64,000 nucleotides of DNA, taken from Trypanosoma brucei. Lineage: Eukaryota. Numbering within the stretch: position 1 is the first letter of the stretch; every line of letters starts with the position of its first letter. The DNA is taken from the NCBI GenBank assembly GCA_000002445.1, contig CH464491.1, positions 1,312,001 through 1,376,000 on the forward strand, in the 5' to 3' direction. Both the position numbers and the translations under genes were made by a program. Of this stretch, positions 2,821 through 43,878 are shown piece after piece. The notes under the pieces were generated by a model that had not been told where the DNA came from, did no database searches, and saw only the letters and a program-made list of their open reading frames with translations.

Positions 2821-3283
2821 GTTAAGACATTGGGGGGGGAATTGTGTTTTTTCGTATTTGTCGGTACGTAACGCGAATGTGTCTGAAGTCAAGCTTCCCG
2901 CACTATGGTGGCCGCACCGTTGTGCCGTGGGTTGTTCTCACTTTTCCTGCGTTTTATTTTATTTCTTTAATAACGGCGCCAGTACGCTACGAATGCTGCG
3001 CGCGTGTGTGTCTGTATCTGTGAAGGGTCGGAGGTTGCAACGTGTTACTTCAGAAGTGTGCGCTGCCAATTTGTACAGTAAAAGTGATGGTGTTGAAGAG
3101 GTGTAGCGGTGCGCTAAAAGGTGGTTGAAGAAAATTGGCTGAGTAGCAGTGCGCACACGTTTTTGAATATGATCTGCCCACATGTTAACGACTCGCTGAC
3201 CTCACTTACTGTTTTCGCTCCTCCCTTATTTCTTCAACTATTTTAAACTTCATGAAGCCACTTGGGCCCACCCGTCTGAGTGC

Positions 3284-6200
3284 TTGCCGCTGTGCATGCA
3301 CATCTGGCGGACCGCTGCAAGCAACTGGGTAAAGAGACACGCCCGTTCTAATGCGGCACGGTGGAGGCGCCCAGAACCCGCTTCATCAAGTGCGGCAGCC
3401 AAAACAATAGCAAGATTGCTCGCAGTTGGTGGCCACGGCTGCTGGTCAGAAGCAACCGCGCTTTATGCAGAAGCACTCGCAACAAAGTCTGTGCAGAGGT
3501 ACGGTGTTGTGACACCCGCGCACCGCCATGATTGTATTGCACTAATTCTCGGAGCTATGTCATCTTCTGTCGACGCCAGCGGCTCTGATATTAACAGGGG
3601 CGAGGAGTCACTCACACCCCATTATGGGATGTTGGCAGAACGCTTGTCGTTAGACATAATTGTGCCGCATAGTGATGTAGGACAGGAAGAGAAGGAGGCC
3701 GCCTCTGTCGCATGCATAGCGGTTTTCAGGGCGCTGTTAACCTCCGGTCGCACGCATGCTGTCCAGCGTTTTGCTCAGCAGTTGCTGCGAAGCAGAAACT
3801 CACGTGAACATGGATTGTGGGCGCTTCGCACAATTATGTTGGCAGTAACGGCAAGGGAAGAGGGAATGTACCGTCAGCTTTTTCTGCATAGTGGGCTGCT
3901 AAAAGATCTTGAACATCTCACGGGCCTTGACGCGTTCACGGTCGTGATGTCGTCGTGCGATGGCCACGAGAAAAATATTGGACCGTGTGGAGGGAGGACG
4001 GAAGGGAACCTTGGAAGAGATGAGGTACACCGTGTTGCGGCAAGGTGGTGCGTGGACGTGGCCCTGCACATGCACACGTGTCCTTGGAGATTCTGCTTGA
4101 CAAACGAGAAGGAGCCACGACGAGAAACGGCGTTTAACAGTGAAGTCACAAGCTATTGCTGTGCCAAAGAGCTTCCAATGCCGGCATTTGCGGTGACGAT
4201 GCTGCCATTTGAGGTGCTACGCAGCAACGCGGTCGGTGTGTTGCGCTGTTGTACTGCTGCTGGGAACGGCTCACATGGCAACGAGGTTGTTACCTTTGAT
4301 GGTACTGCAAGTAATGTTAGTGGCGGTCGTTCTGGTGATTCTACCAGTTGTAGCACAACCGCTCCATCGCTGGGACTTCCTGCACTTAAGCGTTTACAAG
4401 ATGTTGTTTCTGCTGCTATTGAGGTTCCTCTCTCCACATATGAGCCTGTTGAGTGCTTATACTTGCTACTTCAAATATCTCGTGACAGCACCGCCCCTGA
4501 CCCCAGGCGTGTGATGCCATCCACGATGAATATTTTGTGGTGGCGACGGCATCTGCAGAGTTGCGTCCTTGAATCTGTTAAATCGGCTGTTAGGTGGAAG
4601 TCGGTGTGCGACTTTGTTGGTTTGAGCCGCTTAGTCACAGAACGTGTGCCGCATTGTTTTCCCCTTCTGGTCGCTCACGCGGCCGAGTCCCCGGATGCCT
4701 TGAGGACACTGTTCAACGAGGTGTCGCGGCAGGAAGGCGCTGCAGCACATCCTGTGGACGACATCCCACGCTCGTGTGTGATGGGGCTCCTGCAGATGTG
4801 TGGAGATGAAAGATCCGCTGCCGTTATTGATTGGGTGGTAGAGCATTGTAAGGATCATGAGAGTATCGCACAATTCGTTTTGGACAGCCTTGGGCAGCAC
4901 CAGAAGCTTGCGTCGGTCGTCGTGCGGCGGCTCTTTCAGCGAAGTGAGCAAAGCTCGGACGTTATTAATGCGCTTTCGAGACTGCTTGAAAAGGGCACTT
5001 GCAGGACGCTATTGGCTGATGTTTGCTCACTTGTTCCCCAAGCCCAGCAGTGGACGGTAGCGCTGCGGTTTGTAAGCGGCATGTCGGCCCCAGAAGTTGG
5101 GCACGTCCACACCGCCTTCATGGCGTTTGTAGGGAATTGTGATGAGCAGTTTGCTATTAACATGGCACTCCTTTGGTCCGATGAGACCTTCACGTGGTTG
5201 AAGGCTGATGTGAACCCACCGCCCCGGCGGGTGTACATGGACGACAGATGGAGCGATGCGCTTCGTCTTGTAGCGCTGGGTGCGGAGCGGTTAACGCAGC
5301 GGCCGGAGTTGTTGGGAAAGTACATCCGTTATTTTTCTAAAAGGGTTGCGGTAAATTCTCGCCTGTACATGGAGTTGGAGGCGCTCTTAGCGTGCTCGAA
5401 GGTGGGCGGTGGTAGCGCACGTAACTGCGGCCGTTCTTCTAACTGGAATCCCATTGCCAGTACAGTCACTGGCGGTCCTCCCTTAGAAACTTCATTGGTA
5501 GGAGTACGAACCGGGGTGCTTCCGAAGGGTCAGCAGTGGATGGAGGCATGCGCACATGCATCTGAGGTGGGTGTCACGCGTGGAGTACTCGAGATCCTCG
5601 CGAAGCGTGGGAGATGGGAAGAGGCTACCATAGTGCTGGCGAGAGCGGAGGCGAAACGAAGAGTGGAGTGGGCCCCGCTAGTAATACGTGCCGCACGTCT
5701 TTCCAGTCAGTGGCGGGCTGCACTTTCCGTGGCAGAGAAAATTGCAGCCAACGGAATGAAACTGCATTACAGTGTAGTAGCGGAGTTACTTGCGTGCTGC
5801 TTTTCTGCCGATGTACCCCTTGAGGTGGTTCAATTGTGGCTGCACAGGCGTTCAGTTGGGGAAAGTACGTCCTCGCATGTACTTTTCGGTCTGGGCCCTG
5901 GTTCGAGCTTGAGGACCGAGCAGCGTGACGCCAACGACAAACACAACGTTTTCGGTGATGCATCGAGATGGCTGGGCTCGGCGCAGGCGGAGCTCTTTTT
6001 TGTCCTCCTTGAATCGTCTTCCAGTCGATCGTCGGATCATCAGTGGCGTTACGCCCTGCAATTGCTGAAAGAGCATGTGCTATTAAGTGGTGGTGTTCCG
6101 TCTGCACGGGTGTTCCGTTCTACATATTCCATATTACACCGGGCAGAGCGGTGGCGGGAGTCGCTGCAACTTTTGGGTCTGCAGCGATCTGTTTGCGGTT

Positions 6201-30240: not shown

Positions 30241-31059
30241 ATGTTTATCAGTGGGCTGTTCGTGTTGGCCGTGGCTCTGTGCTGCACGAACCCCACAGAT
30301 GGTTGCGACAGCAACTTCACATTGGCTCAAGTGCTGACGCTGTGTCAAATAACAGAACAGCTGAGGGGACTGAAGGAAGTTGTTATGAAAATTGGACCGC
30401 GAGCTGTTGAGGAAGCATTGTTTACTTTGAAGGCGAAGAAACGTAGTGAAGTATCTTTGAGGCGGGCAGAGGAGGCGGCGGAACGGGACCGCAACGCAGG
30501 TTTTGCGGCGGAACGGGCAAGGCTGGCGTATGATAGCGTTTGTGAGGCCGTTGAGTTTGCTGAGTATGCGGCGACAAGCATCGAGGGACGAGCGAGTTCC
30601 CTCCTAGTTATTCAGGAATATTATGTGCCATTCCTGGAAGATGTGATGCTCAGGGTTGGGACGGATGCGGAAGCTGCGGAAGCCCAAGAAGCCGCCATGT
30701 CATGTCTACAAACAAAAAGAAGTGTTTCACCAACGTCACTAAGTGAAGCGGCCTTGGAACTCCGGGTGAGATTAGGGGTCAGAAACTTTAGAGCGTTGAG
30801 GCGCGATCTCCACCGAGCGGCGTTTTGTCTCTATTCGTTGAAAAAGACGGCCGCGAAGATTGCGCTGGCCAGAAGTTCAGTAGAGGAAATAGAGTACCTC
30901 ATAAACGAAGCAGCAAATGAAGCAGAGTGCGTGTCTCCCCCCAAGGGAGGCATACAGGGACAGTTGCCATCGGATGAAAGTGATTCTTCAAATTTGGTCA
31001 CTGTGATTTCGGCCGTCCCGATATGTTGGTTATTGGCCACCATTACGCGTGTTTTGTAA
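30241..31059 (+). CDS. Ala/Glu-rich putative GPI-anchored surface protein (272 aa); GARP/BARP-like composition
   Basis: ATG start. Cleavable signal peptide MFISGLFVLAVALCCTNPTDGCDS. The mature region is Ala/Glu/Arg-rich and helical (RRAEEAAERDRNAGFAAERARLAYDSVCEAVEFAEYAATSIEG). The C-terminal hydrophobic tail AVPICWLLATITRVL is GPI-signal-like. Confidence 0.6.
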   Translation: MFISGLFVLAVALCCTNPTDGCDSNFTLAQVLTLCQITEQLRGLKEVVMKIGPRAVEEALFTLKAKKRSEVSLRRAEEAAERDRNAGFAAERARLAYDSVCEAVEFAEYAATSIEGRASSLLVIQEYYVPFLEDVMLRVGTDAEAAEAQEAAMSCLQTKRSVSPTSLSEAALELRVRLGVRNFRALRRDLHRAAFCLYSLKKTAAKIALARSSVEEIEYLINEAANEAECVSPPKGGIQGQLPSDESDSSNLVTVISAVPICWLLATITRVL

Positions 31060-31784: not shown

Positions 31785-33036
31785 TTACTTGTGCCACCAC
31801 AAACTCCCCAGGCTTTTTTAACACTTATTTATTATAACTGTACCGTAAGGAAGGGGATATGGGCCCGCTGTGAAGCTGGTGCAAATGAGTTGGTTGGAAT
31901 GTAACAACGGATGGTCGGGGGAGGGGGCATATTGGATCCCTTCCTGGTCATCGCCAGCACAAACATCCGCCGAAACACCGCGGAAGAGCCATTGCTGAGG
32001 TAAATTAATCGGCGTGAGAAATGTCGTGGCTGCCAATGGGGCTCCATTGGTTTAAGAAGAAAAAAGAAAACACGGAGCGTCAGCTTCACAGAGCACTGTA
32101 AACAAACGCCTTAACCACCACCGGATCCCATGTTACGCTGCATCCATGCATTCTCAAGTGCTGGATGCGTTTGCGTTTGTATTTGTATGTGTGCGCTTCT
32201 CCTTGAAACAGTAAATATTTTACGCATTACATTTGACATTACGCATATTCCCTTTTCATATTCATTGAAAAAAGTGATGACAATATCTTTTATGCAAATA
32301 ATAATGAAATTCCACAACTATCGCTACCGCTTCAGTATTTTTCTTTCTCGTAACTGTTTCAACCTATTTTGTCATTGTATCCAAAAATATACATCACACG
32401 ATTCAGTACCACATCTTACAACATTTAATAGCATCTTCCTGCTTCCGGTTGCCGTTGTTCCCATTCACATTAATTTTATTCACAAACACTTACAAGCACC
32501 TTAACTTCTCTGTTGAAACATTCCCAATACAAAATGTTGTTTCCTTTTCATAAAAATAAAAATTATCAAGGGAAAACATAATAAGGGGTTAAAGTTATGA
32601 AATCAACTATTAATATATGATATAAACGATGGCTCAGTGTTTCCATCAACACGCGTATTCCTGCGACAAATGCTTTCCATATGTAATGTTAATCATCCTG
32701 AGCTTAATAATGGCAAAAAAAATAAATAAAATTAATCAATTCTGGCACAATGGTACGCACTCATTAGTTGTTTATGCTGATTGCACCTCAACTTTGATTC
32801 GGAGTGCACAACTCCATTGGCGTCAGGTTGGGCTGAAAGGACATTTACGACAACTTTTCCTTTCCGTATATTCCGTAACCTCTGTTTTATCATTATTATT
32901 CGTTATTCGTCACTTCTCTTGCCTCGTGCGCAGCTGGTGGAGGTGTGGCACCATTCAGCTCCGCAAAACGTGCAACAGTTAATGCCTTAACAATATTAAC
33001 GTCAAATTTGACGAGGTATTGTTTGACATCATTTTT

Positions 33037-35340
33037 CTAAAACACTTCAACATGCCTGTGGTTTTCATCATCTGCTTTACCATCTGTGAGATCACATCGC
33101 TGCTTGACTCTCATTGGAGTGGCGTCAGGGTGCTGAACATAAATCATTTCCCATCGATACTTCCCCATAACTGCTTTCCAATATTCATCACTTGGATTAG
33201 TGGTTGGATTTAAAAGTTTCTTCAGCATGCCAAGGAATGTTCCTGTCTTCGTATCATGCGATTCAGCAGTTGTGTACTGCAACATCACTATTGTCTTTTG
33301 TTTTCTCTGTTGTTTTTTATCCTCAGCAATTGCATCAGGGTCAACAACAAAGAAGGCATCCAAAACAGGGAAGTTAGGAAGCGCCTAGTATGCCTGAAAG
33401 AGACTTGGGGAACGTGTTATCATGCCACAACCGTCTGTAAAATCGGCAGCGTTGCCAAAGTTCAGGTATCTCTTCTGTACATGCCTCAAGACAGTGATAT
33501 TCTGCGCAACTTCCTGTTCCTCTACTCCCCTTTCGGGAAGTGGCTTGGTCATTTCGGTGATCGTACTCAACACTTTGGGAAATCCAAGTGCTTTTATAGC
33601 ATTGTACTCAAATAAAGCTGGAATTATCTCACGGGTAGGAATAAGCCCCGCCAACTGAGCTAAATTTTGAGCGGTTATTTCAGTTTCTCAATTATTCTCT
33701 TCTTTATGGATTCAGAGTGAGGTACGCATATGTATATCTCACCATTGTTTCTCCCACAGGCACGAACAATCTTCACGAGTTTGTGAGACGCGTCACTTTC
33801 CTTCCATTCGCCTTTGTTACCCACCACGCCAATATAGAGTTCACGTCGCTCATGGGATTTGATGGAATTTATTTCTTTGTCTATGTCGACCTCACGCGTG
33901 ACATACTTTGCTTCATCAAACACATAACGAAGTGAAGGTCCGACAAACTCCACACGGCTCTCATGCATCTCCCACTTTTCCCTCAACCCGACAGGTGTGG
34001 CTCCAGGATACAGCATGGGTCCAATACGTGAGAAGAAAGCCCGCATTTCAGTCATTTCCCAGCAGTTAACAAAGATACGTGTACATCTTTCCCTTTGCTG
34101 GAACCAGCTGTCAAAATTTCTCAAATTGGGTGAACTGATCAAAATGCTTCCCCATTTTGGAGCCACATCTGCCGGTGGCTGCTCGCCTTTGTTGACGAAG
34201 TCATAAATAACATAACCACGTGTATTAGATGATATAACCTTCATAAACGTTATAGCCGCTTCTTTACTGTACTCCCTAACTCTGCCAACGCCACCACCAC
34301 CAGATTTCTCAAATATATATGCGGCTACACCACGGAAGTACGCAACAACAGGCAACTCTTCCGCATCATAATGCAGTAAGTTGTAGAGTATGAAAGAACC
34401 CAAATTCTGAGATTTACCAATCCCAGGATTACCAATGGCAACGTATGATCGTGGAAAATAAAGACATCCCGGTAAAGCACGCTGTGTACGCCATAATTCA
34501 ACTCCACTCCTTACAACTTTCCATACGCGGAGCTCTTCTCTACGGGTGAATATTCTTTTGTTACTTCCGTCGGTAAACTTGGCTTATTATCACCCCATTT
34601 GAGATGTTAGAACCATTGCTTCAACTTCTTCCCTGCGTTCTGGTTTCTTCTCAACAGCTTCCTCAATTTCAGGGACAACATTAAGTTCTTCATCCTTCCA
34701 CATTACATTGCCACCACGCGTTCCATCAACAAACTCCATCCCGAGCAGTTGAGTTCCATTGTCAATTTCAATATGACTCCATTTCGCATTATAAACAGAG
34801 TCGTAAACTCCTGGAAGGTCAGCACCGTCAGCTAGTTAAATATATCGTTCCCCCGCCTTCCTGGCAATGCACCGTACCGTGTCCAACCTTGATGTCGCTG
34901 CGGAGCCAACTTGTTTCCTCATTTGGGCAGTTGCCTTCTCGCCCCACTGCCGCAGGGAGTAAATTCCATTACCGTTTAGATAGTTTATCCAACCTTGTAT
35001 TTCAGGCAACTGCTCACATATCCTTTATCGCTTAAACTGGAGGAGATTCTCTATGTCTTCAAGTAACTCGGCATCCCTAGTGTACCTTCCTGGGTTGGTA
35101 ACACACAAACTCATTGCTACATTCTTCATGTTGTTCGTGTTCAGAAAGAATTGCATCAGAAATTCGTGCAGGCTCATTTTAGCCAACGCCGCATAGTCTT
35201 CCAGAAGCACATCCTCAACCCTACTTTCCATCGTCCAGTTGGTGTCCCCTTCATTTCTCCACCACTTCTTTCTTTTTTTTCCTTGTACGGTCCCTTGGTC
35301 GTCCTTCCGAATTCACCCCACTTACGTTTCGTTCATACAT
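33037..35340 (-). pseudogene. RHS: Retrotransposon hot spot (RHS)-like pseudogene, fragmented by frameshifts/stops
   Basis: A series of minus-strand ORF fragments with coding character sits in different frames (35025..35231, 33675..34403, 33385..33654, 33037..33363). Walker-A P-loop reads AIGNPGIGKSQNLGSFIL across 34390-34450. The N-terminal basic stretch followed by NWTMESRVEDVLLEDYAALA resembles the RHS N-terminus as I recall it. It sits next to an ingi/L1Tc element. Confidence 0.55.
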
Positions 35341-36148
35341 GAAAAAGAGGTATCCGACACTGGCGGTTCAGGTTATCCATTGTGCTTTTCCACTAAATTA
35401 CACAGGATAAGATAGGGTGATGGTACATATTTGCTGAAGTGTAGTGATATCCATGCGCACACCCCGCGCTATCTTTGCAGGGGGTGCATCATATTCGGGC
35501 TTCGCCGCTCAGTGCAGGCACTTGGTGCCGTGGCCAGTTTTTGGTTGACCCGAAAATGGTTGTTGATGCAGCGCCGCATTAAAGTTTCTCCTTTGCTATG
35601 TGGCTGGATGGTGCGGCATCAGGAAAGCGTGCGGGCACGAGCGCCAGCACCAATGAGTTACGCAAGTCAGGTTACGCGCACTGGCTTATTTACCCCTAGC
35701 ATAAAAGTGTGGCGTGACAGAGTTACTAGTGAAAGCGACGATTTGCACCATATCTTGTAAATAGGCGATGGCCTGCGTATCTCAGAGGTGTGAAATGACT
35801 TCTATTCATGGATGTGCTGGTGGCCGCAAGCGTTGAAGCAACCTACTTCTACAGCTCTCATTCTTGTCCTACTCAAAAGACAGGACACCATCCGCTCATC
35901 GTCGAAGGCGTGGTGGAGTACGTCGCTTCCCTCGATCGTTTGTTCTTCGGTGGTGCCAGGGTCCAGTACCCCGTATCATCGGGGGAAGCCAAGAGCTACC
36001 AGTGTTACTCTCTTTTGGAACACTGCTTTGCTTAGACTACGGCATCGTACAGCACAGGGATCAGCAGCGTCTTGCTGGGACACCGTTTTTCGTTTGTCGG
36101 TCCCTGGGCACGTGCCAGCGTGCCATCAGCAGTATCATCCGCACTAAG

Positions 36149-39100
36149 ATGCTGCTGTCCGGTGATGTGGAAGAGAATCCCGGCCCATCATTGCGCGGGG
36201 TGCAGTGGAACTCCGCCGGGCTATCTCAAGGAAAGAGATTAGCACTCCACAAAACCCTTGTTGATGAGCGGATCGCCTTTTGTCTGTTGAGCGAGACAAG
36301 GATGAAACCTGGAGAGGCGGCTTGCTTTAGCGTTGCTGGCTACCAACATTACGGAATAGCTCGTAACTGCAAAGGAGGTCGTGTATCAATACTAGTGAGG
36401 GCGGACCTGCCAGTCGAGACCGGTATGGCCGTTGTTGGTCGCATTGAACAAGTGCATGCAACAATTCACCTTGCACGTGGAGCAGCGCTGACTGTCACGT
36501 CGGCATACATCCCACCAAAACACACCTTCACGGCAACTGACCTAGATACGCTTCTGACGACTGACGGTGCCCAGATCATCGGTGCAGACGCTAACGCACA
36601 CGCGTTGGCATGGGATCGCGCGAGCCCACCAAATACCAAGGGTGAAACCCTCACACAGTGGTGCATTGACAACCAGTTTCTGGTCTGCAACACTGGTGAG
36701 TGCACCAGGTACGCGCGCCACCAAGGGAAGTCCACCCCTGATGTGACACTGTCAAGGAATTGCACAGTGTACACGTGGACATCGCTGTATTCTCCCGATA
36801 GCGATCACCATCACATATTTTTCGACGTTATGGTTGGAGACGACACAGATGCACTGAGTTGCCCGCGGCTTCGAAAGCCCATGTGCGCATGGCTAAAAGC
36901 TGACTGGAGGAATTTCCGTCTCAAGGTTGACGAGTTCTGCAGGAAAATTGGTAGAGAGAAGAACGTCAACACCCTGGAACAGAAATTGAGCTCCGCCATC
37001 CGCATTGCGATGAAGGTCTCCGTCCCCCGTGGCTGCAGAGCAACGCCACCACATTGGACACCTGAGCTCGCGAAACTCGATGAAGAGATCACTGGATGCG
37101 GACCCTCCCACCGAAGGGAAAAGTTGGTAGCCACGCGTAAGCAGATCCTGGACCGTACCACAAAGAAGAGATGGAGCACACTATGCTCCAGACTTGCGGT
37201 GTCAGACCGCTGCAGTTGGCACATTGTCAAGAAGGTATATGCGCCACGACCACTAACCACACAGGCTGTACTTGTAGATAACGCGGCCATCACGGACTAC
37301 CGTCGAGCTGAGAGGTTCAATAAACTGTACTCGTCCCGCGCAAGAAGGCACCCCGACTCACACCCACCGGCACCAATAAAGACGATAGCGAGTGAGTTCA
37401 GTCCAATCACGATGGCTGAACTACGGAGATCGATCAAACTGCTACCGTGTGGATCCGCAGCCGGACCTGATTGCTTATACAACGAGGCGCTACAACATCT
37501 CGGTATAACAGCGCTGAATGTTGTTCTGAGGCTATTCAATGAGAGCCTACGAACGGGAGTCGTGCCACCTGCATGGAAGACTGGTGTTATCATCCCCATC
37601 CTGAAGGCCGGAAAAAAGGAGGAGGACCTCGATTCTTACAGGCCTGTGACGCCCACGAGCTGTCTCTGCAAAGTCATGGAACGCATAATTGCCGCAAGGT
37701 TTAGAGACACTGTTGAGTCCCAGCTGACGCCGCAGAAATCAGGCTTTCGCCCCGGATGCTCAACGCTCGAACAGCTGCTGCACGTCCGCGCTGCCCTCTG
37801 CCGTCCCACGCACCAATCACGTACGGGTGTTGTATTCGTCGACTACGAGAAGGCATTCGTTACTGTAGACCACGACAAAATTGCGAGGGAAATGCACAGA
37901 ATGAAGGTATCACCCCACATTGTGAAGTGGTGCGTATCATTTCTGAGTAACCGAACTGGCAGAGTGAGATTCAAGGAGAAGCTTTCCAGAAGCAGAACAT
38001 TTGAGCGAAGAGTGCCACAGGGAACTGCCCTTGGCCCAATCATGTTCATTATTGTCATGAACTCGTTGAGCCAGCGCCTTGCAGAAGTGCCGTTACTGCA
38101 GCACGGATTCTTTGCAGACGACCTAACGCTACTTGCGAGCCACACAGAGAGGGATGTCATCAACCACACACTACAATGCGGCCTAAACGTGGTGTTACAG
38201 TTGTCAAAAGACTACTTCATGTCTGTCAACGTAGCGAAAACAAAGTGCACACTCTTCGGGTGTATAGAGCGCCACCCCCTTACATTACAACTGGACGGCG
38301 AAAGAATAGGAGCTGACAGAACACCGAAGCTTTTAGGAGTAACATTCCAGTGTCTGCAAGGGATGGCAACACATGCGGCCGAAACGAGACGCAAGATGGA
38401 CTTCAGACTACTGCAGATAGCAGCCATCTCAGCTTCTACATGGGTACCAAGACGACAAGTGCTGAGAACTTTTTATCTAGCGCTCGTACAGGCACACACC
38501 ATGTATGGCATTGAGGTATGGTACTGGGACGCTTCGGAACGAAGTCGCGACCTCCTTGCATCAGCACAACACAAAGCCAGTCGCATCATAGCCGGCATAC
38601 CGCATGGGACGCGCAAAGAGGACTCTCTGCTGGAAGCAAACCTCCTGCCACTCAAGACGACCACTCTTGTGCGCAGCATGAAATTCATGCTGATGTGTGA
38701 GTCACGAGGCGGATGTTTGCGGCGCAGTGCTGAGGAAGTATACCACAGCAAACACCCAGTCAGAGTCTTACATTCCCGCATCATGCGGTCTTATCCCCAC
38801 CTCCGCATTGAGCCACGCGAGCACCCACTAGAGACATCGACGCTCCGCCACAGCTGCCGACCGCTATTTCACACGCAGATAAAGCCTGTGTGCGCTGATG
38901 ACCCTGACGATGTCAAAAGGGAGGCTTCCGAAAAGTGGATTGAACGGCATTTTGTACGGAGGGGGAAGGAGCTACCGCGGCGAGAGCACTACGAATTGTG
39001 GACTGATGGATCCGTGTCCCTCGGTGAGAAGTCCGGAGCAGCTGCCCTGCTCTATAGAAACAACACGCTGATTTGCGCACCCAAAACTGGAGCAGGGGAA

Positions 39101-39223
39101 CTCTCATGCAGTTACAGAGCGGAATGCGTAGCATTAGAGATAGGACTGCAACGGCTGCTGAAATGGCTTCCGGCATACAGAAGCACACCGAGCAGGTTGT
39201 CCATCTTCTCTGACTCGCTGTAA
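36149..39223 (+). CDS. Retroelement ORF segment: 2A peptide + AP endonuclease + reverse transcriptase + N-terminal half of RNase H (ends at in-frame TAA)
   Basis: The ATG at 36149 encodes MLLSGDVEENPGP. The track ORF 35864..39223 is the same frame read through flanking DNA. The stop TAA at 39221-39223 is in frame with the next segment. Confidence 0.85.
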   Translation: MLLSGDVEENPGPSLRGVQWNSAGLSQGKRLALHKTLVDERIAFCLLSETRMKPGEAACFSVAGYQHYGIARNCKGGRVSILVRADLPVETGMAVVGRIEQVHATIHLARGAALTVTSAYIPPKHTFTATDLDTLLTTDGAQIIGADANAHALAWDRASPPNTKGETLTQWCIDNQFLVCNTGECTRYARHQGKSTPDVTLSRNCTVYTWTSLYSPDSDHHHIFFDVMVGDDTDALSCPRLRKPMCAWLKADWRNFRLKVDEFCRKIGREKNVNTLEQKLSSAIRIAMKVSVPRGCRATPPHWTPELAKLDEEITGCGPSHRREKLVATRKQILDRTTKKRWSTLCSRLAVSDRCSWHIVKKVYAPRPLTTQAVLVDNAAITDYRRAERFNKLYSSRARRHPDSHPPAPIKTIASEFSPITMAELRRSIKLLPCGSAAGPDCLYNEALQHLGITALNVVLRLFNESLRTGVVPPAWKTGVIIPILKAGKKEEDLDSYRPVTPTSCLCKVMERIIAARFRDTVESQLTPQKSGFRPGCSTLEQLLHVRAALCRPTHQSRTGVVFVDYEKAFVTVDHDKIAREMHRMKVSPHIVKWCVSFLSNRTGRVRFKEKLSRSRTFERRVPQGTALGPIMFIIVMNSLSQRLAEVPLLQHGFFADDLTLLASHTERDVINHTLQCGLNVVLQLSKDYFMSVNVAKTKCTLFGCIERHPLTLQLDGERIGADRTPKLLGVTFQCLQGMATHAAETRRKMDFRLLQIAAISASTWVPRRQVLRTFYLALVQAHTMYGIEVWYWDASERSRDLLASAQHKASRIIAGIPHGTRKEDSLLEANLLPLKTTTLVRSMKFMLMCESRGGCLRRSAEEVYHSKHPVRVLHSRIMRSYPHLRIEPREHPLETSTLRHSCRPLFHTQIKPVCADDPDDVKREASEKWIERHFVRRGKELPRREHYELWTDGSVSLGEKSGAAALLYRNNTLICAPKTGAGELSCSYRAECVALEIGLQRLLKWLPAYRSTPSRLSIFSDSL

Positions 39224-39679
39224 ATGTTAACAGCACTGCAGACAGGCCCCCTAGCCGTAACGGACCCAATTCTGAGACGACTATGGAGGCTTCTGCTTCA
39301 AGTTCAGAGAAGGAAGGTGCGTATCCGACTGCAATTTGTGTTTGGCCATTGTGGCGTGAAACCGAATGAGGTTTGTGACGAAATGGCCAAAAAGGCCGCA
39401 GATTTACCACAGTTGCGAGACACATGGATCCCCGACATCATTGCTTATGCGAAGCGAGTGCTTAGGTCGGAAGAAGTCCATGAGAACACTCATAGGTTTG
39501 GTATCACGGGCAACCACTTTCCAACAAAACATAGGGAAGAACTGACGAGGGAAGAAGAAACGGCACTGGCACGCTTTCGGGTTGGGTCTTCAAGACACTA
39601 TGGATGGATGTTGCGAAAGATCAACCCGAGTGTAGTGTACCCTCACAGTGCCGATGGTGTAACCCGCAACATGCAGTGA
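39224..39679 (+). CDS. Retroelement ORF segment: C-terminal half of RNase H (same frame as upstream segment, separated only by a TAA nonsense codon)
   Basis: 39224 and 35864 are in the same reading frame. Contains the RNase H C-terminal motif HCGVKPNEVCDEMAKKAADL. Confidence 0.8.
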   Translation: MLTALQTGPLAVTDPILRRLWRLLLQVQRRKVRIRLQFVFGHCGVKPNEVCDEMAKKAADLPQLRDTWIPDIIAYAKRVLRSEEVHENTHRFGITGNHFPTKHREELTREEETALARFRVGSSRHYGWMLRKINPSVVYPHSADGVTRNMQ

Positions 39680-39806
39680 TAGGACCAACAATACAAACAC
39701 AAACAGCCTACCTGTTGCGACACGCACTCTTCAGAGAACCTCCGAACCGACCAAATGTACGGAGTGTGATGCCACATACCAATGCCGCTCGAGTGCTGTA
39801 ACGCAC

Positions 39807-40916
39807 ATGGTAAACAAACATGGCTTTGTGCGAGCTGATGCCCTCCGGAGGATCAAATACGGCGATGCAACACCCGCAGTGGATATCCCCCCGGAGCCCC
39901 CTCCAGTGGTGGCGATCGTTCCTCTACCATCGAGCACACGAGTCCCGATGAGACCGCAGGTGTTTCATTGTACCCTCTGTGCCTCCAAATTCGCAGTGCA
40001 AGGCCGACTATTACACCACCTTAGAACAATACATGGCATAGGCAGCGGTAGTTACCGCGTGAAAAGGGAGCGAGAGAACGAGGACTCAGTGCAAGGAGAT
40101 GGTAGAGCCCCAGCAGCGCCAGCCTCTCAGGATACACGGAAGCTGCCGTTTCAATGTGACCTGTGCGAGGCGAGCTTCGGTACACGCTCTTCCCTGTCAC
40201 TACACAAGAAATTCAAACATAAGAGCATAGTGACGGAGGACGGTACCGTGGTGGTGGTGCAATTCCCTCGTAAGCGTGCCCGTGAGGGAAACGTTGACGT
40301 CCCGGGGAAGGGCGAGGTGCAGTGCGGTGTGTGCCAAAAAGTGCTCAGTTGCAGGGACTCCCTCATCCGACACTGTAAGGCTTTCCACAAAGGTGAGGGA
40401 GTCGAGCTTAAATGCAGCAAAAGCACAAAATTGTGTTCCACGGATTCCCCGCATACAAATGCATCCATGTTGGTGTGCCCGACATGCGGAAGGCAGTGTG
40501 CTAGCAAAACTGGCCTCACCCTACATCAAAAGAAGATGTACGGTATGAAGGTAGAGCGCGCTGTTACCAGCCAACGCGGCGACTGCGAAGAAACGTCGCT
40601 GTACCTGATGAGCTGGCCCGGTTTGAAGGAGTTACGTGTCAGGTTTGCGGTAGAAGGTGTATGTGTGCAGGATGTATGCTTCTCCAAAAGGCTGGCGCAG
40701 TTTCTCATTGCGGTTGAACGGAGCCGGCCGCAGGTGAAGTCCTCACCTAAGGTAACAGTCATACAACCCACTCTCCCTTCTGCAACTTTCCCCCTTATTG
40801 CCGAGTGTGGAGCTTGCAGGAAAGGCACTGGACGCAGGAATAGTCCAGAAACCCTCAGAGACAGAGGGGGTATGCAGTCAACAAGCAACAGAAACAGAAA
40901 GAGGGGGAGAGAATAA
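39807..40916 (+). CDS. Retroelement ORF segment: C2H2 zinc-finger nucleic-acid-binding domain (frameshifted relative to RT/RNase H)
   Basis: Several C2H2 units: CTLCASKFAVQGRLLHHLRTIHG, CDLCEASFGTRSSLSLHKKFKH, CGVCQKVLSCRDSLIRHCKAFH, CPTCGRQCASKTGLTLHQKKMYG. The frame differs from 39224..39679. Confidence 0.8.
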   Translation: MVNKHGFVRADALRRIKYGDATPAVDIPPEPPPVVAIVPLPSSTRVPMRPQVFHCTLCASKFAVQGRLLHHLRTIHGIGSGSYRVKRERENEDSVQGDGRAPAAPASQDTRKLPFQCDLCEASFGTRSSLSLHKKFKHKSIVTEDGTVVVVQFPRKRAREGNVDVPGKGEVQCGVCQKVLSCRDSLIRHCKAFHKGEGVELKCSKSTKLCSTDSPHTNASMLVCPTCGRQCASKTGLTLHQKKMYGMKVERAVTSQRGDCEETSLYLMSWPGLKELRVRFAVEGVCVQDVCFSKRLAQFLIAVERSRPQVKSSPKVTVIQPTLPSATFPLIAECGACRKGTGRRNSPETLRDRGGMQSTSNRNRKRGRE

Positions 40917-41985
40917 TAAACGAATAACAAAAATCAAAACAAAAGGATTGCTAATTGACATCTTTTGGAGAGTCTGGGGTGGGGGGCTTCTCGCCCCATC
41001 TGCTGTATTCCGTTCAAATGCGGAGCTACAAAAAAAAATTATAGAGGGTGTGTTAGGATGAATAAAAAAGGGAGACTCTGCCACAGTCGCCAGACCGATA
41101 GCATCTCAGGGCTCTACGGTGATGGCTGACGGCCGTGCCAGTGGGGGGAAACTCTCCCGAAGGCACGAAGAAAATTTCAAAAAAAAAACTTGCTGTTTCG
41201 ACCAAATGAACTTTGCAGCGACATCCAGAGTGGTGACCGTTGATGCAATCACTGCCCGGAGCTGACATTGCCGGCTACCCATCTCGTGGCCTCCGGGTGC
41301 GGTGCATATGGTGATAGGACTCGGTCGATCGCTTGATTTTTAGTTGGTACGGGGTCGGCTCCGCTGCATGGTGCTGCGCGTATAGAGTTGCTCACGGTGG
41401 AGCCGTTGTTCCTCTTGCGTTGCTGATGGTGACATTTTTCGACCTTTATATTGATGGGTGAAACGATAAGACGAAAAAAAGGTGTTTGTAGCGATTGTAG
41501 TGGTGGCGCTTCTTTTTCCCCCCTATTTTTAACGGGTGTCTAATACATAGTCACTGTTTATGCTACGCTGCACTACTCTCTTCGTGCGGGCGTGAGGCAA
41601 CGTTAAGTTTCTGCTACATATGTATCGCATAGACTGATTAACAAGCTTATCATAACCTATTTATCCCTCCGTTAGAGACTTTCCTATAACGAGGCGTGAT
41701 GTTTCTATATTCTTCATGGCTCTGCAATCACCCTGTGCTATTTTTGCCCCAGATTTGCTAATGCTCACTTCTGGGAAGTATATTCCCCTCGTGGACGACT
41801 CAAATATTTCAAGAGCTGAGGGACACGGTGCTTCAACCCCTGTAACCCTCTTTACCGCTGCGCATATTTATTAATTTAGGATTTCGAGGAGCCCTTGATG
41901 TGGTATGGTATGTGTCCTTGATGTGACTGTTATTCTCATTACATCTTTATTTTCCATGTGTGTCGCAAGAATATAGGTAAAGAAA

Positions 41986-43323
41986 ATGTTTCGGTGTTAT
42001 GGACGAAAACTGAGTCCCCAACTACGTGACATTATACACCGACTGGACTTTATTGAAAAACAGATTATTGATCTCAAGGCTTTTCGAGATGCGGTTCAGG
42101 CGACGTTGCCAAGCGTTGCGACCGCTGCTGATGCTCTAGCTAGGAAGCGCCAAGAAACAGCAAACCAAATCAATGTAGTGGCGAAGGATCCTTTGACGTC
42201 CGAGGAGTTCGTAGAACTGAATCAATATTATGCCGTTCAAATGGTTCAAACGTTAGCACTTCGTAATATGGTGCACATAAGGACGCATGAGGATCTATAT
42301 TCACACGCCCGATTAATTCACAGAGAGTATCTTGTACGTGTTGCACAGCGGGCCCGCGCACTTAGTCATGCATGTGTGGGGTTGTCTCAGATGCCTTCTA
42401 TTCAGGAACTACGCAGGTGGTATGAGTGGAGTTTCCATGATGTGAGGAGTACGAAAGCTCCAGTCGATGCTGAGGGCGCTCTGAAATTTGATACACTAGT
42501 TAGACGTCTTTTTTTGAGGCACTACAACGTGAGCGCACTTCTTAGCGAGGGCATGCACGAACTTGGGGAGCGCCAAAGGTGGGATGAACACTCTCACTCC
42601 GATGACCTCCTTACCGAAACATTTGACGAGCTTCAACGGTTCTTCGATGAATTTTGTATGGGTCGTGTGAGGTTGCGTTTTCTCGTGGGAAATTATGTTC
42701 AGTTGTCGACGCAAATTTTGCGGGTGGAACCACGGTACTCTGAGAAGCTTACAGCTCCCATGTATTTTGACCACGACCCCGAGAGCTTTGTTGGACAAAT
42801 ATGCCAACGATGCTCATTAATAAAACTAGTAGAGTGCGCGATACGTTCTGCAAGGGCGTCTTACAGTGAGTTGGGTATTGAGCTCCGTGTAGCTGTAGAT
42901 CCTGATGCAACGCTATCTGGGATTCCATACATTACGTATGATATTTTATCTGCGTTAATTGACGATGCCATTCAGGCTAATGTTCTACGGCAGGAAAAGT
43001 ATGGAATACCATTCACGCCAGTTGTGATCACTATTGCTCAACGCAATGCCAATGAGCAGTTTAGTGTCCGTGTTTCCGATACTGCCGGCGGGATGCCCCT
43101 TCATCTTGCCCGACACGTGTTGAAATATTGGTTTGCGTACAAGTGCACGGATGACATGTTGAAACTCGCTAAAACATGGACACATAGTCCCATACGTCTA
43201 CCATATGCTTACTGTGCAGCCAAGGTTTTAGGGGGGGATATATCAGTGGTTTCCATTGATGGTTATGGCACCGACCGTTTTCTTCATCTTCCGTCCGACG
43301 GGATAGAGAGGGTTCGTTTTTAG
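41986..43323 (+). CDS. Mitochondrial PDK/BCKDK-family protein kinase-like protein (GHKL ATPase fold), with degenerate G2 box
   Basis: ATG start. G1 box VRVSDTAGGMP (cf. SDRGGGV). The C-terminal block SVVSIDGYGTDRFLHLP closely matches PDK LKLYSLEGYGTDAVIYI. The N-box-like helix is ILSALIDDAIQANV. The glycine-rich G2 loop is replaced by HSPIRLPYAY. Confidence 0.7.
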   Translation: MFRCYGRKLSPQLRDIIHRLDFIEKQIIDLKAFRDAVQATLPSVATAADALARKRQETANQINVVAKDPLTSEEFVELNQYYAVQMVQTLALRNMVHIRTHEDLYSHARLIHREYLVRVAQRARALSHACVGLSQMPSIQELRRWYEWSFHDVRSTKAPVDAEGALKFDTLVRRLFLRHYNVSALLSEGMHELGERQRWDEHSHSDDLLTETFDELQRFFDEFCMGRVRLRFLVGNYVQLSTQILRVEPRYSEKLTAPMYFDHDPESFVGQICQRCSLIKLVECAIRSARASYSELGIELRVAVDPDATLSGIPYITYDILSALIDDAIQANVLRQEKYGIPFTPVVITIAQRNANEQFSVRVSDTAGGMPLHLARHVLKYWFAYKCTDDMLKLAKTWTHSPIRLPYAYCAAKVLGGDISVVSIDGYGTDRFLHLPSDGIERVRF

Positions 43324-43878
43324 CAGTCAGCTTTTGCTAATCTTAATTTGTTTAACTGAGATACTTACGTTTACACCTAAGCGGGAGAGCGAACTGACAC
43401 ACAGTTTACTACTTTTTTCTGAACTTGTTAACTATCGCTCGATTTTCGTTAGCATTCACCATTTGTTTTACTCGTATTTTAACGTGGAATCCTCTAATGA
43501 AATTACGGAAACGAACGACTTTATCTTTTCCTGCTTATGGACATTTACCACCTTACTCTTCCTCTCTATTTTTTGCTTTGCGTTCCTCTGTTCGTGGAAG
43601 GTGGTTACTTGATGCTTTACCCTCATAATTATATCTGTACGACTACAAAATTTTTGTTCACCATTAGCAAGCATAGCCGTTGCCTGTTTCTACAAAAAAA
43701 AAACAACAAGCGACAGGGTAAGTGAATGTATAGATTAAGCGGGATATTTATGTGAAAGTCTACTAGAGGAAAGCCGTTCAAAAGTCCAACTTCCCCCCAC
43801 ATAGGACATTTTAGTTGTGCTGAGAGGTGTACCTGCTAACTCGTGCGCTCGTGCGGGACTACAACGTGATCAAGGCAG

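What the first reader, a model, noticed from the sequence alone, without database searches (positions are those of the whole stretch)
36093..41189. Near-full-length ingi/L1Tc-clade LINE with a viral-type 2A self-cleaving peptide, inactivated by one nonsense codon and one frameshift
The ORF begins with LLSGDVEENPGP, the canonical 2A motif D-x-E-x-NPGP, fused upstream of an APE-RT-RNaseH-C2H2 polyprotein. This is the signature of trypanosome ingi (T. brucei) and L1Tc (T. cruzi) elements. The first ~77 nt (ccctgggcacgtgccagcgtgcc...) look like the Pr77 internal promoter hallmark. The APE+RT segment (36149..39223) is intact. A single TAA at 39221-39223 interrupts RNase H without changing frame. 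The zinc-finger segment is in another frame. The copy is therefore recently decayed: probably unable to move on its own, but able to supply endonuclease and RT in trans to RIME/NARTc-type non-autonomous elements.
Basis: partly seen in the sequence, partly recalled or inferred. Interest (0 to 1): 0.6.

Follow-up and report, generated by a model that had tools for sequence, protein, structure and literature searches.

The report
Decayed ingi retrotransposon, Trypanosoma brucei

Summary
Window 35950-41188 (+) is a copy of the T. brucei LINE ingi. It is 96.4% identical over ingi nt 26-5252 to an intact copy encoding a 1656-aa ORF (P0039). Flanking proteins match T. b. brucei TREU927 chromosome 11 exactly.

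Confirmed:
- the 2A-like peptide SSIIRTKMLLSGDVEENPGP;
- APE, RT, RNase H and C2H2 domains;
- the TAA at 39221-39223;
- the 3' end at the A10 tail (41179-41188).

Corrected:
- The element starts at 35950, not 36093.
- Only nt 26-79 of the signature survive. The first 25 nt are missing, including the native ATG.
- In intact ingi the 2A lies about 65-85 residues into the ORF, not at its start.
- The frame change comes from two events: a 5-nt tandem duplication (39629-39638) and a 1-nt deletion (~39707).
- No convincing 12-bp target-site duplication exists (7/12), and the published ingi insertion signature is absent upstream.

The 5' truncation is shared with the orthologous copies in T. b. gambiense and T. 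b. equiperdum. The stop and both frameshifts are private to this genome.

The element abuts an inverted degenerate ingi fragment and an RHS pseudogene. It is already known and of low interest.

The parts
35950..41188 (+). ingi LINE copy (ingi nt 26-5252), 5'-truncated by 25 nt
   Evidence: 96.4% identity to the intact copy L002 and 95.4% to L001 over ~5214 aligned nt. nhmmer score 5280, model positions 25-5251.
35950..36003 (+). Remnant of the 5' 79-nt signature / Pr77 hallmark (nt 26-79 only)
   Evidence: 51/54 identical to ingi nt 26-79. The 25 nt upstream match 5/25. The true ingi 5' end CCCTGGCGATGCC is seen in L001 and L002.
35951..36148 (+). In-frame remnant of the N-terminal leader (native codons 7-72); the native ATG (ingi nt 9-11) is missing
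   Evidence: Alignment to P0039, which starts MPATSTWCQGPVPRIIGG; the window starts at WCQGPVPRIIGG.
36128..36187 (+). 2A-like ribosome-skipping peptide SSIIRTKMLLSGDVEENPGP; the first in-frame ATG is at 36149
   Evidence: Coordinates. Identical in the intact P0039. D-x-E-x-NPGP-like motifs sit at the same position in T. congolense, T. vivax and other clade homologues. Activity of ingi/L1Tc 2A-like sequences is reported in PMC3708506.
36203..36817 (+). Apurinic/apyrimidinic-type endonuclease domain
   Evidence: Pfam PF14529 E 8.6e-14 and PF03372, residues 19-223 of the 36149 ORF.
37616..38347 (+). Reverse transcriptase domain (FFADD at 38108-38122)
   Evidence: Pfam PF00078 E 4.4e-39, residues 490-733; motif coordinates.
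37859..37861 (+). GAT->GTT (KAFD -> KAFV) missense in the RT, private to this copy
   Evidence: All other ingi copies compared have GAT. D is present in P0002, P0003, P0004, P0007, P0008 and P0039.
38990..39400 (+). RNase H domain, interrupted by the stop codon
   Evidence: Pfam PF00075 on 39224-39679, residues 15-59. The YELWTDGS motif starts at 38990.
39221..39223 (+). Nonsense codon TAA (ancestral TCA, Ser; codon 1096 of the L002 ORF)
   Evidence: TCA in L001, L002, L004 and L003b.
39629..39638 (+). AGTGT tandem duplication (+5 nt): first frameshift, private to this genome
   Evidence: A single AGTGT in L001, L002, L004 and L003b.
39693..39704 (+). ACAAAC tandem duplication (+6, in frame), shared with the orthologous copies
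   Evidence: Present in L004 and L003b, absent in L001 and L002.
39706..39709 (+). Site of a 1-nt deletion in a C-run (others CAGCCCCACC, window CAGCCTACC): second frameshift, private
   Evidence: Removing the +5 and restoring this base gives one frame with only the TAA.
39756..40388 (+). C2H2 zinc fingers (four intact by pattern); a fifth further on has lost its last His (HQKKMH -> HQKKMY)
   Evidence: Regex hits at 39756-39821, 39969-40034, 40155-40220 and 40323-40388. Pfam zf-C2H2_4 / zf-C2H2. The fifth finger is seen in the alignment.
40914..40916 (+). Native stop codon of the ingi ORF
   Evidence: The repaired translation ends ...NRNRKRGRE*, as P0039 ends ...NRNRKRERE.
40917..41188 (+). 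3' untranslated region and A10 tail (41179-41188)
   Evidence: Aligns to the 3' ends of L001 and L002 up to the A-run; similarity to those non-orthologous copies stops there.
35296..35937 (-). Inverted, degenerate ingi-related fragment (DIRE-like), equivalent to ingi nt ~283-1009, abutting the 5' end of the ingi
   Evidence: nhmmer E 1.4e-27, confident from ~35920 down to 35296. tblastn of P0039 residues 105-251: 31% identity, E 3.6e-9.
32900..35200 (-). RHS (retrotransposon hot spot) pseudogene with internal stops; boundaries approximate, and the stretch below 33675 has no family hit
   Evidence: PF07999 RHSP E 2e-48 on 33675-34403. RHS_N E 8e-16 and DUF7578 E 1.4e-10 on the stop-containing minus-strand translation of 34380-35321. 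The minus-strand translation of 32900-33700 gave no Pfam family at E<=0.01.

Best explanation
The feature is a fixed, non-autonomous copy of the Trypanosoma brucei non-LTR retrotransposon ingi, on chromosome 11 of T. b. brucei TREU927. It lies in the sense orientation of the surrounding gene array, between the GARP-domain gene Tb11.02.2370 and a pyruvate dehydrogenase kinase gene.

How an intact ingi works (established knowledge, not tested here). The element is 5.25 kb. Its first ~79 nt are the clade-wide 5' signature (Pr77), reported as a promoter and HDV-like ribozyme in L1Tc. One ORF starts at nt 9. Ribosome skipping at the 2A-like peptide (residues ~65-85) is expected to release a short N-terminal leader from the APE-RT-RNaseH-C2H2 polyprotein. 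That polyprotein nicks a preferred target and copies the poly(A) RNA into DNA by target-primed reverse transcription, leaving a 12-bp duplication.

How this copy differs (shown here). It lacks the first 25 nt, so the native ATG and a third of the 5' signature are gone. This truncated junction is shared with the orthologous copies of T. b. gambiense and T. b. equiperdum, so it predates their separation. After that separation, this lineage acquired four changes:
- a TCA>TAA stop inside RNase H;
- a +5 tandem duplication;
- a -1 deletion;
- missense changes, including KAFD>KAFV in the RT and a lost His in one zinc finger.

Inference. The copy has been unable to transpose autonomously since at least the common ancestor of these subspecies, and it is now a pseudogene. 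Its 5' junction with an inverted DIRE-like fragment is not a canonical insertion junction. It therefore reflects either a non-canonical 5' joining or a later deletion or rearrangement in an RHS/retroelement cluster.
For: - Identity and extent: (95-96% over 5.2 kb to two T. b. equiperdum ingi copies).
- The intact reference ORF P0039 has 1656 aa. It starts at ingi nt 9 and ends at the same stop as the window copy.
- Domains.
- Host and locus: flanking proteins are exact matches to TREU927 EAN79440.1, EAN79441.1 and EAN79443.1 on a 5,261,801-bp contig.
- Orthologous copies with an identical 5' junction but different ORF lesions.
- Repairing the +5 and -1 gives a single frame with one internal stop and 94.1% amino-acid identity to P0039.
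- Non-canonical junction: the candidate TSD matches 7/12 (background for >=7 is 1.9%). The published ingi4 upstream signature matches 0/7, against 6/7 and 5/7 upstream of the two full-length copies.
- Context: DIRE-like fragment and RHS pseudogene.
- Literature: 2A in ingi/L1Tc, the 12-bp TSD and signature, Pr77.
Against: - Only four other ingi copies were available for comparison, so some 'private' changes could be shared with unsampled copies through gene conversion.
- The orthologous copies differ by ~4% while the flanks differ by 0.5-1.9%. A simple 'one insertion, then neutral drift' history does not fully explain that.
- Whether the 25 nt were lost at insertion or later cannot be decided.
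- No expression or activity data were examined.
Confidence: 0.93

Rival explanations
1. One reading: the copy cannot move on its own but still produces endonuclease and reverse transcriptase that mobilise RIME elements in trans.
For: The frame is open from 36149 to 39220 (1024 codons) with APE and RT hits and an intact FFADD motif. The element lies in the sense orientation of a polycistronic unit, so read-through transcripts are plausible (inference).
Against: - The native ATG and the first 25 nt of the 5' signature are missing.
- Translation from the internal ATG would place only 12 residues before the 2A skip site. The tract upstream of the motif is critical for 2A activity.
- The product would end inside RNase H and lack the whole C2H2 domain.
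- The RT carries D>V in the KAFD motif, invariant in the full-length clade homologues read.
- Intact ingi ORFs exist elsewhere, for example P0039 in T. b. equiperdum. Potentially autonomous copies in TREU927 itself are reported in the literature as I recall it; this was not checked here.
Confidence: 0.07
2. The 5' end was complete at insertion. A later deletion or ectopic recombination within the RHS/retroelement cluster then removed ingi nt 1-25 together with the upstream target-site duplication and the endonuclease recognition signature.
For: - The upstream flank has 0/7 of the ingi4 signature and only a 7/12 match to the downstream 12-mer. Two full-length copies retain 5-6/7.
- The flank is an inverted DIRE-like fragment that itself stops abruptly at about ingi nt 283.
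- The neighbouring RHS fragment is only 87% identical between 'orthologous' loci, which suggests recombination activity.
Against: - The junction is identical in three subspecies, so no intermediate state is available.
- A 5'-truncated insertion with a non-canonical junction gives the same picture.
- The upstream 12-mer GTTTGTTCTTCG fits the xTxTxxTxxxxx TSD pattern 3/3, and 7/12 is slightly better than chance.
Confidence: 0.45
3. The element is an L1Tc (T. cruzi) copy, or an old degenerate DIRE, rather than ingi.
For: Same clade, same domain order and a 2A-like motif.
Against: - 96% nucleotide identity over 5.2 kb to T. brucei-group ingi copies.
- The best protein hit is 94% identical, from T. 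b. equiperdum. The next best, from T. congolense and T. vivax, are about 40%.
- The flanking genes are exact TREU927 proteins.
- A DIRE would be riddled with stops, like the adjacent inverted fragment. This copy needs only three repairs to read through.
Confidence: 0.01

Closest known systems
Tbingi (ingi / TRS-1), the autonomous LINE of Trypanosoma brucei (ingi4 subclade)
   Same: 96.4% nucleotide identity over nt 26-5252. Same ORF end, same domain order (APE, RT, RNase H, C2H2 fingers), same 2A-like peptide, same 3' UTR and poly(A) tail.
   Different: - Lacks nt 1-25, including the native ATG and part of the 79-nt signature.
- Has one stop, a +5 and a -1 indel, and KAFD>KAFV.
- Has no convincing 12-bp TSD and lacks the ingi4 upstream signature.
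L1Tc of Trypanosoma cruzi (ingi6 subclade)
   Same: Same clade and architecture, with an N-terminal 2A-like sequence and a 5' Pr77 hallmark in intact copies.
   Different: Different species and subclade. L1Tc nt 1-11 are CCCTGGCTGAG, like the true ingi 5' end, which is missing here. No direct nucleotide alignment to L1Tc was possible with the data at hand.
DIRE (degenerate ingi/L1Tc-related elements)
   Same: Non-functional ingi-clade copies. One such fragment lies inverted immediately upstream, at 35296-35937.
   Different: DIREs are highly degenerate; the adjacent fragment is about 31% identical at protein level. The studied copy is only 3.6% diverged from an intact ingi.
Picornavirus-type 2A ribosome-skipping peptides
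   Same: Carries the D-V-E-x-N-P-G-P motif. Ingi and L1Tc 2A-like sequences were reported active in recoding assays.
   Different: It sits in a retrotransposon ORF, about 65-85 residues from the N-terminus in intact ingi. In this copy the upstream leader has lost its start codon, so the peptide is unlikely ever to be translated in its native context.

Membership tests
Tbingi (T. brucei ingi LINE) | High nucleotide identity along the whole ~5.25-kb element to bona fide ingi copies | tested here: met
   96.4% (L002, intact ORF) and 95.4% (L001) over ~5214 nt; nhmmer score 5280.
Tbingi (T. brucei ingi LINE) | Single long ORF (about 1657 aa) encoding APE, RT, RNase H and C2H2 zinc fingers | tested here: not met
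   All domains are present. The ORF is broken by the missing ATG, the TAA at 39221, a +5 at 39629 and a -1 at ~39707. This makes it a pseudogene copy of the family, not an intact member.
Tbingi (T. brucei ingi LINE) | 5'-terminal 79-nt signature (Pr77 hallmark) starting CCCTGGCG | tested here: not met
Only nt 26-79 are retained (51/54). The first 25 positions match 5/25.
Tbingi (T. brucei ingi LINE) | 12-bp target-site duplication preceded by the ingi4 signature AxxxxxxxTxxxGTxGGxTxxx | tested here: not met
   GTTTGTTCTTCG vs CTTGCTGTTTCG matches 7/12 (background for >=7 is 1.9%). Signature 0/7, against 6/7 (L001) and 5/7 (L002).
Tbingi (T. brucei ingi LINE) | 3' poly(A) tail | tested here: met
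   A10 at 41179-41188. Similarity to the other ingi copies (L001, L002) ends there.
Tbingi (T. brucei ingi LINE) | Host is a Trypanozoon (T. brucei group) genome | tested here: met
   Three flanking proteins are exact matches to T. b. brucei TREU927 entries. Syntenic loci exist in T. b. gambiense and T. b. equiperdum.
Tbingi (T. brucei ingi LINE) | Terminal ~250-nt segments shared with RIME | not tested
L1Tc (T. cruzi) | Close sequence identity to L1Tc and a T. cruzi host | tested here: not met
   The host is T. brucei. The closest proteins are T. brucei-group (94%), then T. congolense and T. vivax (about 40%).
2A / 2A-like ribosome-skipping peptides | C-terminal motif D(V/I)ExNPGP within a translated ORF, with a suitable upstream tract | tested here: met
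   SSIIRTKMLLSGDVEENPGP at 36128-36187, identical to the intact ingi ORF.
2A / 2A-like ribosome-skipping peptides | Demonstrated recoding ('cleavage') activity | not testable with these tools
   Activity of ingi/L1Tc 2A-like sequences is reported in the literature. This copy was not assayed and lacks the native start codon.

The most novel reading that the evidence does not exclude
The orthologous ingi copies at this locus differ by about 4% between T. b. brucei and T. b. gambiense/equiperdum, and the adjacent RHS fragment by 13%. The flanking gene and intergenic DNA differ by 0.5-1.9%. Site patterns are star-like rather than grouping the orthologues. One reading not excluded is that dead ingi and RHS copies in such clusters are continually overwritten by ectopic gene conversion from other family members. 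If so, the 'private' lesions and substitutions were imported rather than arising in place.
Probability: 0.2. Interest if true: 0.3.

Novelty: already known. Interest (0 to 1): 0.1.

Why it matters
It matters little beyond annotation hygiene. Ingi elements, their 2A-like peptide, their 5' signature, their 12-bp duplications and their association with RHS pseudogenes have been described for this very reference genome. The useful outcome is a corrected anatomy of this copy: true boundaries, what remains of the 5' signature, the exact lesions, and which of them are lineage-private. It also cautions that a CCCTGG-initial string is not sufficient to call Pr77.

Tried and rejected
- An Rfam scan of 35500-41800 at E<=1 found nothing, so no HDV-like ribozyme family matches this truncated 5' end.
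- Exact look-ups of the window's flanking proteins in the contig index failed. The locus was reached through cluster members instead.
- The search with the zinc-finger ORF returned only a T. theileri 'Tbingi protein' fragment at 33% identity.
- I tested whether the inverted DIRE-like fragment continues on the other side of the ingi, which would show the ingi had inserted into it. rc(41190-41700) against ingi nt 1-400 scored at chance, z -0.3.
- I looked for other ingi, RIME or DIRE pieces in the window. Only the two hits described were found.
- The first-pass reading of the 39700 indel as a 5-nt insertion was revised. The orthologous copies show a shared 6-nt in-frame duplication plus a private 1-nt deletion.
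- My own early coordinates for the L001 element start (4516) and for the junction were off by 1-3 nt. They were corrected against the rulers.
Full report
**What is in the sequence**

The window between about 35950 and 41188 on the + strand contains a long frame with the peptide MLLSGDVEENPGP at the ATG at 36149. Pfam finds the following:
- an endonuclease domain, PF14529, E 8.6e-14;
- a reverse transcriptase, PF00078, E 4.4e-39, both within 36149-39220;
- the C-terminal part of RNase H in 39224-39679 (E 2.2e-05; 25.1 bits, marginally below the family's 25.8-bit cut-off);
- C2H2 zinc fingers in 39807-40916.

The TAA at 39221-39223 is in frame. The zinc-finger segment is in a different frame. 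The core observation is therefore real.

**Which element, which genome**

The best protein match is a T. brucei equiperdum 'reverse transcriptase' at 94% identity. T. congolense and T. vivax homologues are about 40% identical. That protein's cluster contains a 1656-aa intact ORF, P0039. I used its locus L002, and a second copy L001, as references.

The window copy is 96.4% identical to L002 and 95.4% to L001 over about 5214 nt.

Three flanking proteins are exact matches to T. b. brucei TREU927 entries on a 5.26-Mb contig:
- Tb11.02.2370, a GARP-domain protein (EAN79440.1);
- pyruvate dehydrogenase kinase (EAN79441.1);
- a clathrin coat assembly protein (EAN79443.1).

The element is thus an ingi on chromosome 11 of the reference strain, not L1Tc. 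It lies in the same orientation as the surrounding + strand gene array.

**Boundaries**

Homology to full-length ingi begins at window 35950, which is ingi nt 26, and runs to the A10 tail at 41179-41188.

The other, 41039, is an internal A-run present in all copies.

**The 5' signature**

Full-length copies begin CCCTGGCGATGCCGG.... L1Tc likewise begins CCCTGGCTGAG. It matches the real first 79 nt at 19/79 positions, z 0.7 against shuffles. Window 35950-36003 matches ingi nt 26-79 at 51/54, and the preceding 25 nt match 5/25.

The copy has therefore lost the first 25 nt. That loss includes the ATG at ingi nt 9-11 with which the intact ORF (MPATSTWCQGPVPR...) begins.

**The 2A**

In the intact ORF the 2A-like tract SSIIRTKMLLSGDVEENPGP occupies roughly residues 66-85. 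It follows a short leader and lies immediately upstream of the endonuclease domain. The ORF does not begin with it. Related motifs sit at the same place in T. congolense, T. vivax and other clade homologues.

The presence and activity of 2A-like sequences in ingi and L1Tc, about 40-80 residues from the N-terminus, are published. In this copy the only in-frame ATG left is the Met 12 residues before the skip site. That leaves almost none of the upstream tract the literature describes as critical.

**Lesions**

I compared the window copy with L001, L002 and the orthologous copies. It has:
1. the 5' truncation;
2. TCA>TAA at 39221-39223;
3. an AGTGT tandem duplication at 39629-39638 (+5);
4. an in-frame ACAAAC duplication at 39693-39704;
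5. a 1-nt deletion in the C-run at ~39707.

Removing the +5 and restoring the missing base yields one frame. It has a single internal stop and the native terminal stop at 40914-40916, and is 94.1% identical to P0039.

Two of the missense changes stand out. GAT>GTT at 37859-37861 turns the RT motif KAFD into KAFV. An H>Y change removes the last His of a fifth zinc finger. So 'APE+RT intact' is true only in the sense of being open.

**History**

The pyruvate dehydrogenase kinase gene led to the syntenic loci of T. b. gambiense DAL972 (L003) and T. b. equiperdum (L004). Both carry an ingi at the same place with the identical 5' junction ...CGATCGTTTGTTCTTCG|GTG... and the ACAAAC duplication. Neither has the TAA, the +5 or the -1. 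They carry other stops and indels instead.

The truncation therefore predates the separation of these lineages, and the ORF-breaking lesions arose independently afterwards. This supports 'recent decay' of the reading frame. It also means the copy has lacked its native start and full 5' signature for longer.

**Target site**

The ingi clade makes 12-bp duplications. Tbingi is preceded by the signature AxxxxxxxTxxxGTxGGxTxxx. The two full-length reference copies show 6/7 and 5/7 of that signature and recognisable duplications. The window copy shows 0/7. Its flanking 12-mers (GTTTGTTCTTCG and CTTGCTGTTTCG) match at 7/12, a level reached by 1.9% of random positions.

The 5' junction is thus not a canonical insertion junction. 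I cannot tell whether the cause was a non-canonical 5' joining or a later deletion.

**Surroundings**

Three features lie on the minus strand upstream of the ingi 5' end:
- a degenerate ingi-related fragment at 35296-35937, about 12 nt (35938-35949) upstream of it (nhmmer E 1.4e-27; protein match to the endonuclease domain E 3.6e-9);
- an RHS pseudogene with DUF7578, RHS_N and RHSP domains and internal stops;
- no detectable continuation of the degenerate fragment beyond the ingi 3' end.

This is the familiar association of ingi-type elements with RHS pseudogenes.

**Mechanism and function**

By established knowledge of the clade, an intact ingi moves by target-primed reverse transcription, using the polyprotein released downstream of the 2A. 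None of that was tested here.

For this copy, the missing 5' end, the stop inside RNase H, the two frameshifts before the zinc-finger domain and the RT missense change make it a pseudogene. I give it about 7%.

**Unexplained**

The orthologous ingi copies differ by about 4%, and the RHS fragment by 13%. The flanking gene differs by 0.45% and the intergenic flank by 1.9%. Site patterns among four copies are star-like. Relaxed constraint on deep haplotypes and ectopic gene conversion are both possible.

**Verdict**

This is a correctly recognised family with several wrong details. It is an already known kind of element in a well-studied reference genome, and of low interest.

Noticed in passing
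window 35296-35937 (-): A degenerate ingi-related (DIRE-like) fragment, equivalent to ingi nt ~283-1009, lies head-to-head with the ingi 5' end. Together with ingi nt 283-1009 (about 36207-36933) it forms a diverged inverted repeat. The best blastn stretch is about 72% identical over 106 nt.
   Followed up: partly
window ~32900-35200 (-): An RHS (retrotransposon hot spot) pseudogene with DUF7578, RHS_N and RHSP P-loop domains and internal stops. It is on the opposite strand to the surrounding gene array. Its RHSP part is only 87% identical to the syntenic T. b. equiperdum sequence.
   Followed up: partly
L003 1551-4697 and 4798-11415 (T. b. gambiense DAL972 chr 11): The syntenic gambiense locus shows a partial tandem arrangement. 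One ingi segment corresponds to window 35811-38953, followed by a second corresponding to window 36779-43400. This could be a real duplication or recombination, or an assembly artefact.
   Followed up: no
window 35950-41188 vs L004 / L003: The orthologous ingi copies differ by about 4% (92.5-98% per 400-nt bin), while the adjacent PDK gene is 99.55% identical and the intergenic flank 98.1%. Shared-derived sites do not group the orthologues (13, against 16 and 10 for the alternatives).
   Followed up: partly
L002 (T. b. equiperdum CM010672.1, 83444-91414): An apparently intact ingi with a 1656-aa ORF starting at element nt 9. It is flanked by a near-perfect 12-bp duplication (TTCTCC(T)TCACA) and 5/7 of the ingi4 upstream signature, so it is a candidate autonomous copy. 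It lacks one GAG codon that all other copies have.
   Followed up: partly
window 30241-31059 (+): A GARP-domain (glutamic acid/alanine-rich protein family) gene, Tb11.02.2370, with a signal-peptide-like N-terminus and a hydrophobic C-terminus. It lies just upstream of the RHS/retroelement island.
   Followed up: no
window 35810/35811 vs L004 3758-3830: T. b. equiperdum has an extra 73 nt inside the DIRE-like fragment relative to the window. This is an indel polymorphism within the degenerate element.
   Followed up: no
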